Origin: a virus
Lineage: Duplodnaviria; Heunggongvirae; Uroviricota; Caudoviricetes
DNA: 20,641 bases
Direction: 5' to 3' (one strand)
IMG/VR virus record: IMGVR_UViG_2537562190_000023
Shown: piece after piece, positions 3,292-18,090 of the stretch
How positions within the stretch are numbered: position 1 is the first letter of the stretch
Layout: each line of letters begins with the position of its first letter
The notes under the pieces: model-generated
Database searches by the model: none
What the model saw: only the letters and a program-made list of their open reading frames with translations
Told to the model about the DNA's origin: nothing
Translations under genes and position numbers: made by a program

Positions 3292-3653
3292 AAATAAAGG
3301 GATAACGATGATAGTTTGAGAAAAACAGAAATAACACTTTTGTGGCAAAGCATGGTGCCGGGTGCCTCCCGGTGAATTCAGTACCAGCACCTGAATCCGC
3401 GATTATCCCATATACCTGGTTGCTGATTGCCCCTCCGCACAGGGGGATTCACCATGCAGTAGTATTTTTAATAAACAGTAAACAAAAAAATCAAGCATTA
3501 TGCAGGCTGTTTCTTTTTATCACCGGCCACAGCAATACCACAATGCCGCAGACCAGCCCCCATCCGCCAGCACCGACATGATTCTGCTGGTGAAATCCAC
3601 CATCACCACCAGAAACAGCAGGAGTGCAGCCACAGCCAGGCGCAGTTTTACCG

Positions 3654-6853: not shown

Positions 6854-7114
6854 TCACTCATCTTCAAAAGCAGAAAAACCAGCCTTAATCCCAGCGTCTT
6901 TCAGAGACGGCAACGATGTGACAAATTCATTTGCACGCAAAATAAAACCATCCGTCACAAGCCCATCCACAAAATGAATTAACGCAGCTCCACTCTTCCT
7001 TTGTTGAGACTGTAAACATTTAATACGGCAGTGGCTGACAATAGCGCCATTCTCAACGCGCACAGTATAGAGGCCATCTTCACTAAAAATTTCACGTAAT
7101 TCTTCGATTTTCAT
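6854..7114 (-). CDS. Hypothetical protein, 86 aa (position matches rem of Qin-type prophages)
   Basis: ATG at 7114 (MKIEELREIF...) with SD GGAAGGA. Lies between the hok locus and the DUF968 gene, as in the hokD-rem-ydfU order of Qin as I recall it. Confidence 0.5.
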   Translation of the reverse strand: MKIEELREIFSEDGLYTVRVENGAIVSHCRIKCLQSQQRKSGAALIHFVDGLVTDGFILRANEFVTSLPSLKDAGIKAGFSAFEDE

Positions 7115-7230
7115 CAACAGAATCCTTCCAGATAAATAGCACTCCCCTGTTCGGGGTCCATCCCTCTTCTCCCTGCGCGCTACTTAAGTATTTTTGATTC
7201 TATTCCGGCGCCGTCCGGAACTTCAAACGC

Positions 7231-7266
7231 GTTGAAAATAAAAACAAAAACCCGCCGAAGCGGGTT
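7231..7266 (-). terminator. Rho-independent terminator at the 3' end of the hok mRNA
   Basis: Minus-strand hairpin AACCCGC-UUCG-GCGGGUU (7-bp stem, plus 7249-7266) followed by UUUUUGUUUUUAUUUU (plus-strand A-run 7231-7248). Confidence 0.55.
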
Positions 7267-7334
7267 AAGTGCGGGTGCGTTGAGGATGCCTGACACATCA
7301 GAGGTGGCGAGGGATTTCTCCCCCGCCTGGTCTC

Positions 7335-7490
7335 TTACTCCTCAGGTTCGTAAGCTGTGAAGACAGCGACCTCCGTCTGGCCGGTTCGGATTCGTACCTC
7401 GCAGAGGTCTTTCCTCGTTACCAGTGCCGTCACTATGACGGTTAAACAGATGACGATCAGGGCGATTAACATCGCCTTTTGCTGCTTCAT
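7335..7490 (-). CDS. hok: Hok/Gef-family type I toxin, 51 aa; an in-frame upstream extension to 7547 forms a mok-like leader ORF
   Basis: MKQQKAMLIALIVICLTVIVTALVTRKDLCEVRIRTGQTEVAVFTAYEPEE is a canonical Hok/RelF-type sequence (single TM helix, conserved Cys, acidic C-terminus). The 70-codon ORF 7335-7547 starts at ATG 7547. Confidence 0.85.
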   Translation of the reverse strand: MKQQKAMLIALIVICLTVIVTALVTRKDLCEVRIRTGQTEVAVFTAYEPEE

Positions 7491-7534
7491 AGCCTGCTTC
7501 TCCTTGACCTTTCGGTCCGTAAGAGGCAATCTAT

Positions 7535-7590
7535 ATGTGACGAGCATATAGGGGCCTCACTTCGATTTATAGTCGGGTGGGGCTTTTATC
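7535..7590 (+). ncRNA. Predicted Sok-like antisense RNA overlapping the mok translation-initiation region
   Basis: Plus-strand TTGACC at 7504-7509 could serve as a -35. A possible terminator hairpin (CCUCAC/GUGGGG with one G-U pair, 7556-7582) is followed by CUUUUAUC. The region is antisense to the mok start at 7547. Boundaries are approximate. Confidence 0.3.
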
Positions 7591-7792
7591 TATCTGCCGT
7601 TGGTGTTCATGCCCGAGGCAGATAGCCTCAAGCACCCGCAGCAATTCTACTTAACTCTGCCGTTACAGCAAGCCGTTTTCGTCCGATATGGGAATTCCCA
7701 TATCGGAATGAATTCAGTTCACCTGGCGAGGCTTAGCGTACAATTTTTTCCGTTTTGTGAGCTGCCCCTACATGCCGCTGGCGCGGCATCCG

Positions 7793-7828: not shown

Positions 7829-8587
7829 TCAAGTGCCTTTCCTGGTCCAGCCATATTTTTTGAATGCAGGCGCCGCTTCATCGGTTTGTAGCCATTCTGC
7901 AAATCGACGGGTTTCATCATTTGCATCCTGACGTACTGTAATGTTCATATCACGCCATATCACGTAGTCTGGCGCTATTTCCACGACATCACCAATTTCT
8001 GGATTACTGGCTGCCCAGTCAGCCCAGGTTATCCAGACATCTGCTTCAGGCTGATTCTCAAGAGCCTTACGTGCAGTTCCGCTATTGGGCGCATATAAAA
8101 TAATATTTTTTCGGATTGCGGCGACAGTTTCTATATTCCCTTTACGTCCGGCAATATCTTCCCAGACGCCAGTGCCTGATGTATTACTGGTACCACCACC
8201 ATCATTAACAATTACGCCAATCCCGGGTCTGGTCAGGTCGTCAATACTCCGGATATTTTTAGGATTACCTTTCTTTACCAGTAAAATACTTTTTCGCAGA
8301 TAAAGAGGCTGAATATCTTTTTCACTGAAGCTGTCTTTATGGTCCCGAATGATAGCCAGAGCAGATTGTTCTGATGCGCCAAACAAGATATCTGCATTTT
8401 TTTTGGCATCTTCATTCCATTTGTTCTGTGGGCCGTAATGAACGTTCACTATAATACCTGTTTTTTCGGCATAAAGTTTGGCTGCATCAAGCAAGGCTGT
8501 ATGCGGGCCACCAGGACCATACAGATTGATATCAGCATAAGCAGCAGAAGACAGGAATATTAAAAAACCTGCCATTATGTTCCTCAT
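7829..8587 (-). CDS. Periplasmic substrate-binding protein of the ModA/AcfC-like family, with signal peptide; orphan (no permease or ATPase partner in the window)
   Basis: 252 aa. N-terminal signal peptide MRNIMAGFLIFLSSAAYA. Sequence pattern fits ModA/TupA/AcfC-type binding proteins as recalled. Strong SD AAAAGGAG. The flanks are visibly AT-rich. Confidence 0.7.
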   Translation of the reverse strand: MRNIMAGFLIFLSSAAYADINLYGPGGPHTALLDAAKLYAEKTGIIVNVHYGPQNKWNEDAKKNADILFGASEQSALAIIRDHKDSFSEKDIQPLYLRKSILLVKKGNPKNIRSIDDLTRPGIGVIVNDGGGTSNTSGTGVWEDIAGRKGNIETVAAIRKNIILYAPNSGTARKALENQPEADVWITWADWAASNPEIGDVVEIAPDYVIWRDMNITVRQDANDETRRFAEWLQTDEAAPAFKKYGWTRKGT

Positions 8588-14324: not shown

Positions 14325-14806
14325 AATAACAGGAACCACCTCGCCTGACGTGGTTAAAAGCAGGCACACAACGCGAAAGCGTACGGCGAGGTAGCTGGTT
14401 CATAGATAGCCTGTCGTTAAATTTTCGTCGACCGTGCGCTTCCGGTTGTGGCAGTCCGCGAAATGGCGCGGCGGTAAGTATGGCTGGGGTTTCCTCCATT
14501 GCTCCAGAAAATGCACCGGGTTGTCAGGTTGACCATACGCTTAAGTGACAACCCCGCTACAACGCCCTCTGTTATCAATTTTCTGGTGACATTTGGCGGT
14601 ATCAGTTTTACTCCGTGACTGCTCTGCCGCCCTTTTTAAAGTGAATTTTGTGATGCGGTGAATGCGGCTAAGCGCACGCGGAACAGTTAAAACCAAAAAC
14701 AGTGTTATGGGTGGATTCTCTGTATCCGGCGTTAATTGTTAACTGGTTAACGTCACCTGGAGGCACCAGGCACTGCATCACAAAATTCATTGTTGAGGAC
14801 GCGATA

Positions 14807-16876: not shown

Positions 16877-17764
16877 TCAGGCTGCCAGATCATCGTTTCC
16901 GATGGAAGCATAATAAGCTTTTTCTGCTTCTGCCGGGGGAGTATGGCCCAGCCTTTCCAGCAATCGTCGATTGTTATACCAGTCCACCCACGTGAGTGTG
17001 GCCAGTTCCACTTCTGCACGGTTTTTCCAGCTCTTACGGTGTATTACCTCCGCTTTGTAAAGACCATTGATGCTCTCCGCCATCGCGTTGTCATACGAGT
17101 CGCCAGTACTCCCTGTTGATGCCAGTAATCCGGCTTCCTTAAGCCGCTGCGTGTAGGCCAGCGATACATACTGAGAACCTTTATCACTGTGATGGATTGT
17201 GCCGGACGGCCGACGGGCCCACAACGCCTGCTCCAGTGCATCCAGCACGAATGTTGTTTCCATGGATGATGAGACCTGCCATCCCACGATGTATCCGGCG
17301 AACACATCAATGATGAACGCCACATAAACGAAGCCCTGCCATGTGCTTACCCAGGTAAAATCAGCCACCCACAACTGGTCTGGACGTTCTGCCACGAACT
17401 GACGGTTTACGCGGTCGCATGCGGCAACGGCTTTCCGGCTGACGGTAGTGCGGACCTTTTTACCCCGGAGAACACCGGCAAGTCCCATAACCGCCATGAG
17501 ACGTGCCACAGTGCATCTGGCCACTCTGATACCTTCCCGTAACAACTGACGCCAGACTTTACGCACACCGTATACCTTGTGATTTTCATCGTATACGCGC
17601 TGTATCTCTTTCTTCAGCCAGTCATCGCGCTGCGCACGGGCACTGCGTTTATCCGGATAATGTCGCTGTTGCTGACAGTGGTAATACGTTGACGGGGCAA
17701 TATGCAGTTCGCTGCATACCGGTCCGACCCCGTACTGCTCACGCAGCTTATCCAGCAGTGGCAT
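16877..17764 (-). CDS. IS629 transposase OrfB (DDE catalytic domain)
   Basis: 295 aa beginning [29 protein letters not shown] and ending ASIGNDDLAA, matching IS629 OrfB as recalled. ATG overlaps the orfA stop (TAATG). Confidence 0.9.
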   Translation of the reverse strand: MPLLDKLREQYGVGPVCSELHIAPSTYYHCQQQRHYPDKRSARAQRDDWLKKEIQRVYDENHKVYGVRKVWRQLLREGIRVARCTVARLMAVMGLAGVLRGKKVRTTVSRKAVAACDRVNRQFVAERPDQLWVADFTWVSTWQGFVYVAFIIDVFAGYIVGWQVSSSMETTFVLDALEQALWARRPSGTIHHSDKGSQYVSLAYTQRLKEAGLLASTGSTGDSYDNAMAESINGLYKAEVIHRKSWKNRAEVELATLTWVDWYNNRRLLERLGHTPPAEAEKAYYASIGNDDLAA

Positions 17765-18090
17765 TATTTTTTCCAGAGGCGGTCGAACTCCGCCTTCGCA
17801 AAATAAGCGGAAGCCTGGCGAAGGATATCGTTACTGCGGCGCAGTTCACGATTTTCACGTTCCAGCTCTTTCAGACGCTGACGTTCAGCGGTGGTGAGTC
17901 CACCATCACCACTCCCGGTATCCCGCTCATGCTGGCGAACCCAGACACGCAGAGTCTCCGGCGTACAGCCAATCTTTGGGGCAATGGAACAAATTGCCGC
18001 CCACTGTGAGTCATATTCATCCTGACTTTCCAGAACCATACGAATCGCCCGCTGACGGACTTCGGGGGAAAAACGAGTATTTTTAGTCAT
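17764..18090 (-). CDS. IS629 transposase OrfA (HTH / leucine-zipper part)
   Basis: 108 aa [59 protein letters not shown]..., matching IS629 OrfA as recalled. An A6 run sits at the orfA/orfB junction, where IS3-family -1 frameshifting occurs. Confidence 0.9.

What the first reader, a model, noticed from the sequence alone, without database searches (positions are those of the whole stretch)
7231..7631. Complete hok/sok-type type I toxin-antitoxin locus with predicted RNA structure
Beyond the Hok CDS, the locus has the expected architecture: a mok-like leader ORF; a minus-strand promoter (-10 TAGAAT at plus 7634-7639); a 9-bp stem (7590-7598 with 7617-7625) that would sit at the extreme 5' end of the hok mRNA; a 3' terminator about 70 nt after the stop; and a plausible 50-60 nt antisense RNA over the mok start. 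Unlike Qin hokD as I recall it, no relBE-like genes follow. The locus lies between a moron and the Q-proximal genes, where it could stabilise the prophage.
Basis: partly seen in the sequence, partly recalled or inferred. Interest (0 to 1): 0.4.

Follow-up and report, generated by a model that had tools for sequence, protein, structure and literature searches.

The report
Intact hokD/sok toxin-antitoxin module in prophage
This is an ordinary, already annotated hok/mok/sok type I toxin-antitoxin cassette (the intact form of E. coli hokD) sitting in a Qin-like lambdoid prophage, with every known regulatory RNA element present.

Summary
Window 7240-7685 (minus strand) carries a complete hok-family module. 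It has a 51-aa Hok (Pfam HOK_GEF, nucleotide-identical to K-12 hokD), an in-frame 70-codon mok, a promoter, a terminator and a cis-antisense Sok candidate (7539-~7593, plus strand). Rfam's hok-leader model scores 103.9 bits.

Folding gives 5'/3' end pairing (tac/fbi), ucb/mok-SD sequestration and a 5' metastable hairpin. After 3' trimming it gives the tac/ucb and SD/dcb switch. These helices are kept, with compensatory changes, in 33 homologues from Escherichia to Photorhabdus.

Corrections:
- The -10 TAGAAT is at 7644-7649, not 7634-7639.
- The 9-bp stem lies at mRNA nt 13-21/40-48, behind the 12-nt tac.
- In K-12, relBE precede hokD rather than follow it.

The locus is 99.96% identical to an E. 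coli O103:H2 prophage where RefSeq calls it hokD. It also matches O157 PPompW prophages ("gef"). About half of complete E. coli genomes hold most of the transcript. Relatives (mokW/hokW/sokW of phage 933W/Sp5) are annotated and experimentally validated.

So this is already known and of low interest. Its biological role (prophage retention, lysis timing or defence) is untested. One side observation: the Sok-recognition loop is hypervariable among alleles whose Hok protein is identical.

The parts
7666..7671 (-). hok/mok promoter -35 (TTGCTG)
   Evidence: Read from the sequence. It sits 16 nt upstream of the -10. The region is nearly identical in 933W hokW. At 3/6 it is below the threshold of the consensus scan.
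7644..7649 (-). hok/mok promoter -10 (TAGAAT)
Evidence: It aligns with TATAAT of K-12 hokC and TAGAAT of 933W hokW.
7241..7637 (-). Predicted full-length mok-hok mRNA (about 397 nt). The 5' end is good to about 2 nt; the 3' end lies in the T-run after the terminator.
   Evidence: First position of the Rfam RF01794 match is 7637. Terminator. MFE -166.3 kcal/mol, z=-7.7.
7626..7637 (-). tac (translational activator element), mRNA nt 1-12, GGGUGCUUGAGG
   Evidence: It pairs with fbi in the full-length fold and with ucb in the 3'-trimmed fold. G1-3, G5, C6, U7 and U8 are invariant in 33 homologues.
7609..7619 (-). Partner of tac in the nascent-transcript metastable hairpin (nt 19-29 pair with nt 3-13)
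   Evidence: Folds of the first 30-50 nt give ..(((((((((((.....))))))))))) at -18.8 kcal/mol.
7590..7625 (-).
   Evidence: 97.6% of cells are paired across 33 homologues, with one pair changed on both sides.
7579..7585 (-). ucb / anti-SD (AAGCCCC, nt 53-59)
   Evidence: It pairs with the mok SD region in the full-length fold and with tac in the trimmed fold. The tac/ucb helix is 99.6% paired in 33 sequences.
7555..7558 (-). mok Shine-Dalgarno (GAGG, nt 80-83)
   Evidence: It lies 7 nt upstream of the mok AUG. It is sequestered in the full-length fold and pairs with dcb in the centroid of the trimmed fold.
7335..7547 (-). mok ORF (70 codons, in frame with hok and sharing its stop)
   Evidence: The mok ATG is invariant in the 33-sequence alignment. 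The layout matches annotated mokC/hokC and mokW/hokW.
7531..7551 (-). Sok-target hairpin (nt 87-107, CUAUAUG-CUCGUCA-CAUAUAG). The mok AUG is in the stem and the loop faces the Sok 5' tail.
   Evidence: This is the most variable part of the locus among alleles.
7523..7527 (-). dcb (GCCUC, nt 111-115)
   Evidence: It pairs with the mok SD in the trimmed-mRNA centroid. 98.1% of cells are paired in 33 sequences.
7500..7503 (-). hok Shine-Dalgarno (GGAG)
   Evidence: Read from the sequence. The AAGGAG block is nearly invariant across the alignment.
7335..7490 (-). hok CDS: 51-aa membrane toxin, with stop codon
   Evidence: Pfam HOK_GEF 81.6 bits. There are 0 nucleotide differences from K-12 hokD. 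RefSeq annotates it as hokD.
7306..7327 (-). Stable 3' UTR hairpin (9 bp, GAAA loop); the likely 3' end protector of the processed mRNA
   Evidence: It is present in both folds. The role is inferred from R1 (PMC9841398).
7273..7285 (-). fbi (fold-back inhibition element, CCUCAACGCACCC)
   Evidence: 12 bp plus one bulge with tac, -21.5 kcal/mol. Compensatory U4:A to C4:G changes in 5 Photorhabdus copies.
7240..7266 (-). Intrinsic terminator of the hok mRNA (stem 7266-7249 plus T-run)
7504..7509 (+). Predicted Sok promoter -35 (TTGACC)
   Evidence: Read from the sequence and identical in K-12 sokC. The K-12 hokD breakpoint falls exactly here.
7527..7532 (+). Predicted Sok promoter -10 (CAATCT, weak; 17-nt spacer)
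   Evidence: It aligns with CACTCT in front of annotated sokC. Activity is inferred, not shown.
7539..7593 (+). Predicted Sok antisense RNA (49-55 nt): 9-nt single-stranded 5' tail GACGAGCAU, long hairpin, U-rich tail
   Evidence: The ends were mapped from annotated sokC and sokW. Fold -21.4 kcal/mol, z=-4.7. It is complementary to mRNA nt 45-99, which cover ucb, the mok SD and the mok AUG.

Best explanation
This is an intact member of the hok/mok/sok (Hok/Gef) type I toxin-antitoxin family. It is the complete form of the locus that survives in E. coli K-12 as the truncated hokD (relF). It sits in the early-right region of a Qin-like/PPompW-type lambdoid prophage, between the adhesin moron paa and rem-ydfU-rusA-Q.

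Mechanism, by homology with plasmid R1 hok/sok:
1. A moderately strong promoter (-10 at 7644-7649) makes a stable mRNA of about 397 nt.
2. While nascent, its 5' tac element is held in a metastable hairpin.
3. Once complete, tac pairs with fbi at the 3' end and ucb covers the mok SD. The full-length RNA is then neither translated nor bound by Sok.
4. Slow 3' exonucleolytic trimming removes fbi. tac switches to ucb, the mok SD pairs with dcb, and the mok start hairpin is presented.
5. If the unstable antisense Sok (7539-~7593, + strand) is present, its 5' tail binds that hairpin, mok translation (and with it hok translation) is blocked, and the duplex is degraded.
6. If Sok supply stops, mok/hok is translated and the 51-aa Hok depolarises the inner membrane.

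Shown here, all in silico: every sequence and structure element, their conservation and covariation, the identity of the toxin to K-12 HokD, and the synteny.

Inferred: transcription from both promoters, 3' processing, Sok instability, and what cuts off Sok. The likely triggers are prophage loss or prophage induction.
For: Toxin and RNA family:
- Pfam HOK_GEF, E=2.9e-23.
- Rfam RF01794 scores 103.9 bits over 7637..7488.

Annotation of the same sequence elsewhere:
- 100% identical DNA is annotated hokD in RefSeq genomes.
- It is annotated gef 'phage maintenance protein' in O157 PPompW prophages.
- The hok CDS is nucleotide-identical to K-12 hokD.

Folds of the window's own RNA:
- The full-length fold pairs nt 1-12 with 7285-7273 and buries the mok SD; dG -166.3, z -7.7.
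- The 3'-trimmed RNA refolds to tac/ucb plus SD/dcb.
- A metastable 5' hairpin forms at -18.8 kcal/mol.

Conservation in the 33-sequence alignment:
- The closed-form helices are 89.9% paired, against 38-47% when partners are slid, with 11 pairs changed on both sides.
- The open-form helices are 90.2% paired, against 34-52% slid.
- fbi is found opposite the 5' end in nearly all homologues, including compensatory variants.

Sok candidate:
- Its ends coincide with annotated sokC and sokW.
- It folds as tail + hairpin + U-tail.

Published experiments on relatives:
- HokD protein is toxic when expressed (bioRxiv 10.1101/2025.08.07.668861).
- hokW-sokW has an mRNA 85.7% identical over nt 1-375 and a Hok 47/51 identical. 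It was shown to be a working toxin/antitoxin pair with both RNAs seen on northern blots (PMC8621323).
Against: - There are no expression data for this allele.
- The predicted Sok -10 (CAATCT) matches the consensus at only 2 of 6 positions. The hok -35 matches at 3 of 6, so the generic promoter scan did not flag either promoter.
- This allele lacks a hairpin of about 21 nt that the commoner hokD alleles and sokW carry inside the Sok region. Its Sok is therefore shorter than any studied one.
- NCBIfam Hok models score below their curated cut-offs.
- Intact chromosomal hokA/B/C loci failed to mediate post-segregational killing or rifampicin activation in earlier work (as summarised). An intact architecture therefore does not guarantee R1-like killing.
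Confidence: 0.85

Rival explanations
1. The module is the same, but its job is not prophage retention. As reported for hokW-sokW of Sp5, Sok would disappear on SOS/RecA-dependent induction, and Hok would damage the membrane early and advance or increase phage release.
For: - hokW-sokW behaves this way in a lambdoid prophage (PMC8621323).
- The window's hok promoter and first ~55 nt of leader are nearly identical to hokW's, and Hok is 47/51 identical.
- The locus sits on the rightward early transcription path between the replication genes and Q. Read-through from the early rightward promoter (pR) at induction could therefore change the hok/Sok balance; this last point is inference.
Against: - In 933W the hokW locus lies at the far right end of the genome, not in the nin region, so the context differs.
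- The reported effect was about 2-fold.
- The host prophage here carries pseudogenes and IS elements and may not be inducible.
Confidence: 0.3
2. The module is intact in sequence but functionally silent in normal cells. It would be a selfish or neutral passenger, like the intact chromosomal hokA/B/C loci that did not give post-segregational killing.
For: - Earlier tests of chromosomal hok loci are summarised in bioRxiv 10.1101/2025.08.07.668861.
- The K-12 lineage tolerated loss of the whole regulatory half.
Against: - All regulatory helices are kept, with compensatory changes.
- The 46-nt mok-start hairpin segment of this allele (window 7518-7563) is >=99% identical in 602 of the 603 genomes that carry it.
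- The hok CDS is almost invariant among alleles.
- This pattern fits purifying selection better than drift.
Confidence: 0.2
3. The module acts as an abortive-infection defence. Infection by a lytic phage shuts off host transcription, the short-lived Sok decays, and Hok kills the cell before the invader matures.
For: - R1 hok/sok on a multicopy plasmid reduced T4 plating (cited in PMC8621323).
Against: - The Hok catalogue paper found no enrichment of hok next to known defence systems.
- I did not scan the window against PADLOC, so defence-gene content here is untested.
- The 3' processing step is slow, which suits defence poorly.
Confidence: 0.12
4. The locus is a decayed remnant like K-12 hokD: a toxin gene without its own control elements, expressed only as the tail of another operon.
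For: RefSeq gives it the same gene name, hokD.
Against: - The leader, mok, the Sok region and the promoter are all present and align with functional relatives.
- There is no relBE.
- paa upstream has its own terminator at 7823-7802.
Confidence: 0.02

Closest known systems
hokD (relF) of E. coli K-12 cryptic prophage Qin
   Same: - The hok CDS is nucleotide-identical, and the 3' UTR with fbi is 99% identical.
- The downstream synteny is the same: rem, ydfU (DUF968), Q.
- The prophage family is the same, carrying dicB/dicF and ydfA/ydfC.
   Different: - In K-12, homology starts only at the hok SD (window 7504).
- relB-relE replace the promoter, tac, ucb, the mok start and sok.
- The window holds the complete ancestral-type module and no relBE.
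mokW/hokW/sokW of Stx2 phage 933W / Sakai prophage Sp5
   Same: - The mRNA is 85.7% identical over nt 1-375.
- The -10 and the first ~55 nt of the leader are identical.
- Hok is 47/51 identical.
- mok is in frame, and the Sok 5' end maps to the same position.
- It is also carried by a lambdoid prophage, and it has been shown to be a toxin/antitoxin pair (PMC8621323).
   Different: - sokW is 71 nt because of a ~21-nt hairpin insert that the window lacks.
- The target-loop sequence differs (CUGAACA in hokW, CUCGUCA here).
- The 3' end beyond fbi differs.
- hokW lies at the right end of the phage genome rather than between the replication genes and Q.
hokC (gef)/mokC/sokC of E. coli K-12
   Same: - The leader architecture is the same, about 80% identical over nt 1-327.
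- mok is in frame.
- The Sok -35 is identical and the Sok start maps to the same position.
   Different: - It is a chromosomal backbone locus, not a prophage locus.
- In K-12 its 3' end, including fbi, is cut off by IS186.
hok/sok (parB) of plasmid R1
   Same: The regulatory logic is the same, and each element was found here: tac/fbi, ucb, mok SD/dcb, metastable hairpin, a 3' processing substrate, and a cis-antisense RNA over the mok start (PMC9841398).
   Different: - The sequence is too diverged for blastn; no R1-type hit was seen among the plasmid matches.
- Hok identity is about 44% (the figure given for HokW in PMC8621323).
- R1 hok/sok is plasmid-borne with proven post-segregational killing, which has not been shown for this locus.

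Membership tests
hok/mok/sok type I toxin-antitoxin family | Toxin ORF of about 50 aa with the Hok/Gef domain (one transmembrane helix, conserved Cys) | tested here: met
   Pfam PF01848 scores 81.6 bits against a cut-off of 22. The protein is identical to K-12 HokD. NCBIfam Hok subfamily models score below their cut-offs.
hok/mok/sok type I toxin-antitoxin family | Overlapping leader ORF mok, with its own SD, starting upstream of hok | tested here: met
   ORF 7547..7335 with GAGG 7 nt upstream. The mok ATG is invariant in 33 homologues. The layout is in frame, as in annotated mokC and mokW.
hok/mok/sok type I toxin-antitoxin family | Cis-encoded antisense RNA (Sok) covering the mok translation-initiation region, with its own promoter and terminator hairpin | tested here: inconclusive
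   The sequence features are present: -35 TTGACC, a start at 7539 that coincides with annotated sokC and sokW, and a tail + hairpin + U-run fold with z=-4.7. The -10 is weak and transcription cannot be tested here.
hok/mok/sok type I toxin-antitoxin family | Long-range 5'/3' pairing (tac/fbi) that closes the full-length mRNA | tested here: met
   12 bp plus a bulge in the MFE structure. Duplex -21.5 kcal/mol. The helix is 93.4% paired in 33 sequences, with 3 pairs changed on both sides.
hok/mok/sok type I toxin-antitoxin family | Alternative pairings: ucb/mok-SD (closed) against tac/ucb plus mok-SD/dcb (open, after 3' trimming) | tested here: met
   Searches show the switch on this sequence. 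Conservation is 94.9% (ucb/SD helix), 99.6% (tac/ucb) and 98.1% (SD/dcb). The tac/ucb and SD/dcb pairs hardly vary, so they offer little covariation evidence.
hok/mok/sok type I toxin-antitoxin family | Metastable 5' hairpin in the nascent transcript that sequesters tac | tested here: met
   nt 3-13 pair with nt 19-29 at -18.8 kcal/mol in folds of the first 30-50 nt. The hairpin is replaced once nt 53-59 are present.
hok/mok/sok type I toxin-antitoxin family | Match to the curated RNA model of the hok leader (Rfam RF01794) | tested here: met
   103.9 bits against a gathering score of 59, full length 1-157. The model matches the hok sense strand: it starts at the mRNA 5' end and finishes at the hok AUG. 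It therefore supports the leader, not the antisense RNA as such.
hok/mok/sok type I toxin-antitoxin family | Slow 3' processing of the mRNA, an unstable Sok, RNase III cleavage of the duplex, and killing when Sok is lost | not testable with these tools
   This needs northern blots with a rifampicin chase and genetics. It has been shown for R1 (PMC9841398) and in part for hokW-sokW (PMC8621323).
K-12-type relBE-hokD arrangement | relB-relE immediately upstream of hok, with the hok leader replaced | tested here: not met
   No RelB/RelE similarity anywhere in the window. The leader is intact. The upstream neighbour is paa.

The most novel reading that the evidence does not exclude
The Sok-recognition hairpin (mok start, mRNA nt ~81-110) may be under diversifying selection among prophage hokD alleles. 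Each prophage's Sok would then silence only its own hok, much as antisense-RNA loops define plasmid incompatibility groups. That would let several hok-bearing prophages coexist in one EHEC genome, each remaining individually addictive.

Evidence so far:
- Among 83 loci with a Hok protein identical to the window's, there are 17 hairpin variants.
- Nucleotide diversity is 0.18-0.26 in this hairpin, against about 0-0.03 in the CDS.
- Co-resident copies in three genomes all differ.
- The same hairpin occurs twice in only 1.7-10% of the genomes that carry it.

No proper null model was run. Linkage of each allele to a prophage type, and superinfection immunity, could produce the same pattern.
Probability: 0.3. 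Interest if true: 0.4.

Novelty: already known. Interest (0 to 1): 0.12.

Why it matters
The finding matters little as a discovery.
- The gene is already named in RefSeq.
- Sister loci (mokW/hokW/sokW) carry full annotation in the GenBank record of phage 933W.
- One sister locus has been tested experimentally.

Its practical value is for annotation. RefSeq marks only the 51-aa CDS here. The mok ORF, the Sok RNA and the roughly 445-bp regulatory unit are unannotated, and the shared name hokD hides the difference between this intact module and the K-12 remnant.

The intact allele would be a convenient natural reference for testing whether prophage hok/sok modules act in prophage retention, lysis timing or defence. 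It could also be used to test whether Sok alleles are mutually orthogonal.

Tried and rejected
1. Generic sigma-70 scan. It found neither the hok nor the Sok promoter, because both have one weak hexamer. It flagged only a site at 7226..7197 in front of the rem-like ORF. The promoters were placed by alignment to hokC, sokC and hokW instead.
2. Search for hokW in the nin/Q region of 933W. It is not there. The locus lies at 58.4-58.8 kb.
3. NCBIfam scan. Only sub-threshold Hok/HokA matches came up, so it adds no finer naming.
4. K-12-type remnant reading. Rejected.
5. Treating the Rfam 'sok' hit as evidence for the antisense RNA. Rejected, because the model matches the hok sense strand.
6. Testing whether identical Sok-target hairpins avoid co-residence. 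Duplicates are rare but do occur, and without per-genome copy data no valid null could be built. The question is left open.
7. Possible extension of tac/fbi by 3 bp upstream of nt 1 (inverted repeat I5). It would require a start at 7640, which is too close to the -10, and it is not conserved in hokC-type loci. I treated it as uncertainty of about 2 nt in the start site.
8. Two early scripts failed or returned nothing because locus files were not yet synchronised.

Full report
**What is there**

The minus strand of window 7240-7685 carries a small cassette.
- A 51-codon ORF (7490..7335) is a Hok/Gef toxin (Pfam PF01848, E=2.9e-23).
- It is extended upstream, in the same frame, by a 70-codon ORF that starts at 7547. 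This is the layout annotated for mokC/hokC in K-12 and mokW/hokW in phage 933W.
- Rfam's model RF01794 matches 7637..7488 over its full length at 103.9 bits against a gathering score of 59.
- That model lies on the hok sense strand. It starts at the mRNA 5' end and finishes at the hok AUG. It therefore certifies the hok leader, not the antisense RNA.

Confirmed:
- The 9-bp stem (7625-7617 with 7598-7590) is exact.
- The terminator is at 7266-7249 followed by a T-run, 68 nt after the stop codon.

Corrected:
- With -35 TTGCTG (7671-7666) and a 16-nt spacer, this places the start at about 7637. That is the first base of the family-wide GGGUGCUUGAGG motif.
- The given span therefore loses the promoter and the first six transcribed bases.
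- Loci in unrelated contexts stop being homologous at about 7650-7685 on one side and about 7240-7273 on the other. This delimits the mobile unit.

**RNA architecture**

- The predicted 397-nt mRNA folds at -166.3 kcal/mol, with z=-7.7 against shuffles. In that fold nt 1-12 pair with CCUCAACGCACCC (7285-7273), and the mok SD pairs with an upstream C-rich box. This is the closed tac/fbi plus ucb/SD state described for plasmid R1 (PMC9841398).
- With the 3' end removed up to fbi, the RNA refolds. tac pairs with ucb (AAGCCCC), and in the centroid structure the mok SD pairs with dcb (GCCUC). A hairpin then presents the mok AUG.
- The first 30-50 nt alone form a -18.8 kcal/mol hairpin that sequesters tac. 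This is the metastable structure expected during transcription.

**Comparative test**

- I fetched 133 related loci and aligned 33 distinct full-length transcripts. They came from E. coli prophage alleles, hokC-type loci, Kluyvera, Citrobacter, Photorhabdus and Erwinia.
- The closed-state helices are paired in 89.9% of cells, against 38-47% when partners are slid. Eleven pairs show changes on both sides. One is U4:A to C4:G in tac/fbi, at a position that is bulged in the tac/ucb helix.
- The open-state helices are paired in 90.2% of cells, against 34-52% slid. They are almost invariant, so they give little covariation evidence.
- An alignment-free search finds the fbi complement of each sequence's own 5' end in nearly all homologues. 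The exceptions are copies truncated by IS186 or otherwise damaged.
- The structures were derived from the window's own sequence, which inflates the paired percentage somewhat. The compensatory changes are independent of that bias.

**Sok**

- The annotated 5' ends of sokC (K-12) and sokW (933W) both map to window 7539. Their 3' ends map to 7593 and 7587.
- The 55-nt candidate folds as a 9-nt free 5' tail (GACGAGCAU), a long hairpin and a U-rich tail, at -21.4 kcal/mol and z=-4.7.
- The tail is complementary to the mok AUG and the loop of the target hairpin.
- The -35 (TTGACC, 7504-7509) is identical to that of sokC. The -10 (CAATCT) is weak, as is sokC's (CACTCT).
- Expression of Sok from this allele is inferred, not shown.

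**Identity and context**

- The window is 99.96% identical over 16.7 kb to a prophage of E. coli O103:H2 12009. RefSeq annotates the CDS there as hokD, flanked by paa upstream and by rem-like, DUF968, RusA and Q genes downstream.
- The same cassette is annotated as 'gef, phage maintenance protein' in O157 PPompW prophages.
- The hok CDS has no nucleotide difference from K-12 hokD.
- In K-12, homology begins only at the hok SD (window 7504). Upstream of that point lie relE and relB. Published accounts say K-12 hokD was disabled by rearrangement (PMC12214031), and this agrees.
- The window contains no relBE.
- Of 5426 complete E. coli genomes, 2668 hold at least 80% of the transcript. Most fetched loci with the same Hok protein have the full leader, and only a few are of the K-12 type.

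**What is known**

- Phage 933W's GenBank record carries mokW, hokW and sokW features.
- hokW-sokW of the near-identical prophage Sp5 was shown to be a toxin/antitoxin pair. Both RNAs were detectable, and Hok production was triggered by RecA-dependent induction (PMC8621323).
- HokD is toxic on expression, and hok genes are enriched about four-fold in prophages (bioRxiv 10.1101/2025.08.07.668861).
- The finding is therefore a correct recognition of a known element.

**Function**

The molecular mechanism can be transferred from R1 with good confidence. The biological role cannot. Three roles remain open:
- Lysis-timing help, as reported for hokW.
- Abortive infection.

Earlier tests of intact chromosomal hok loci found no post-segregational killing.

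**Side observation**

- Among 83 loci with an identical Hok protein there are 17 versions of the mok-start hairpin. Its shape is kept but its loop is very variable.
- Nucleotide diversity peaks there at 0.18-0.26, while the CDS is nearly invariant.
- Co-resident copies in three genomes differ from one another.
- The same hairpin occurs twice in only 1.7-10% of the genomes that carry it.
- This fits selection for non-cross-reacting Sok/hok pairs, but I could not build a proper null model.

**Verdict**

The element is already known. Interest is low.

Noticed in passing
window 7523-7558 (hok mRNA nt 80-115) and loci L004-L136: The mok-start / Sok-target hairpin is the diversity hot spot of the locus. 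There are 17 variants among 83 loci whose Hok protein is identical to the window's. Nucleotide diversity is 0.18-0.26 there, against about 0-0.03 across the CDS. Co-resident copies in the same genome differ, and the same hairpin is duplicated in only 1.7-10% of carrier genomes.
   Followed up: partly
window 7682-7707: A perfect 26-bp palindrome (TCCGATATGGGAA/TTCCCATATCGGA, with an EcoRI site at its centre) lies about 10 nt upstream of the hok -35, between the paa terminator and the hok promoter. It is single-copy (two copies in a few genomes), occurs in 576 complete E. coli genomes and is unannotated. It is present only in the paa-linked context and is not part of the conserved hok module. 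Its function is unknown; an operator or a recombination joint are possibilities.
   Followed up: partly
window 7559-7578 versus alignment A2 columns 67-87: This allele lacks a ~21-nt GC-rich hairpin (CATTACGCGTCCTGCAAGACGC) that the commoner E. coli hokD alleles and hokW carry between ucb and the mok SD. Its Sok is therefore about 50-55 nt instead of 71 nt. The short form of the leader resembles Photorhabdus and Citrobacter youngae copies, which suggests modular exchange of leader segments.
   Followed up: partly
window 7349-7352 (minus strand; Tyr47 codon UAC followed by G): The UACG motif recognised by TadA is present at the Tyr47 codon. K-12 hokD mRNA, whose CDS is identical, is reported to be about 6% A-to-I edited, recoding Tyr to Cys (PMC12214031). 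In the MFE fold of the full-length mRNA the motif lies in an unpaired stretch.
   Followed up: partly
window 7829-8587 (minus strand), terminator 7823-7802: The upstream 'moron' is paa/adfO, an AcfC-family adhesin. It matches Pfam SBP_bac_11 and is annotated 'AcfC family adhesin Paa'. It has its own strong intrinsic terminator, so hok is not simply read through from it.
   Followed up: yes
window 6857-7117 (minus strand) and 7197-7226: The ORF downstream of hok is a homologue of K-12 Rem (70% identity over 87 aa). It has no Pfam or NCBIfam family. It is preceded by the only consensus-grade promoter-like site in the region, TTGAAG-18-TAGAAT.
   Followed up: partly
window 3317-3483 (minus strand): Rfam match to the sRNA family STnc100 (RF02076, 101.6 bits), which lies beyond the Q antiterminator gene on the late-gene side.
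   Followed up: no
window 14581-14632 (plus strand): A full-length DicF antisense sRNA (RF00039, 77 bits), next to dicB as in the O103:H2 12009 annotation. This confirms the Qin/dic-type prophage backbone.
   Followed up: no
window 17693-17809 (minus strand): An ALIL pseudoknot (RF01497, 120.3 bits). This is the programmed-frameshift signal of an IS3-family transposase inserted in the prophage. Beyond about 16.8 kb, identity to the O103:H2 12009 prophage drops to 94.6%.
   Followed up: no
Rfam RF01794 'sok antitoxin (CssrC)' as matched at window 7637..7488: Despite its name, this Rfam model aligns to the hok sense strand. It begins with the mRNA 5' tac sequence, ends at the hok AUG, and depicts the tac/ucb and SD/dcb open-state helices. 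Strand calls from this model should not be read as the direction of the Sok gene.
   Followed up: yes
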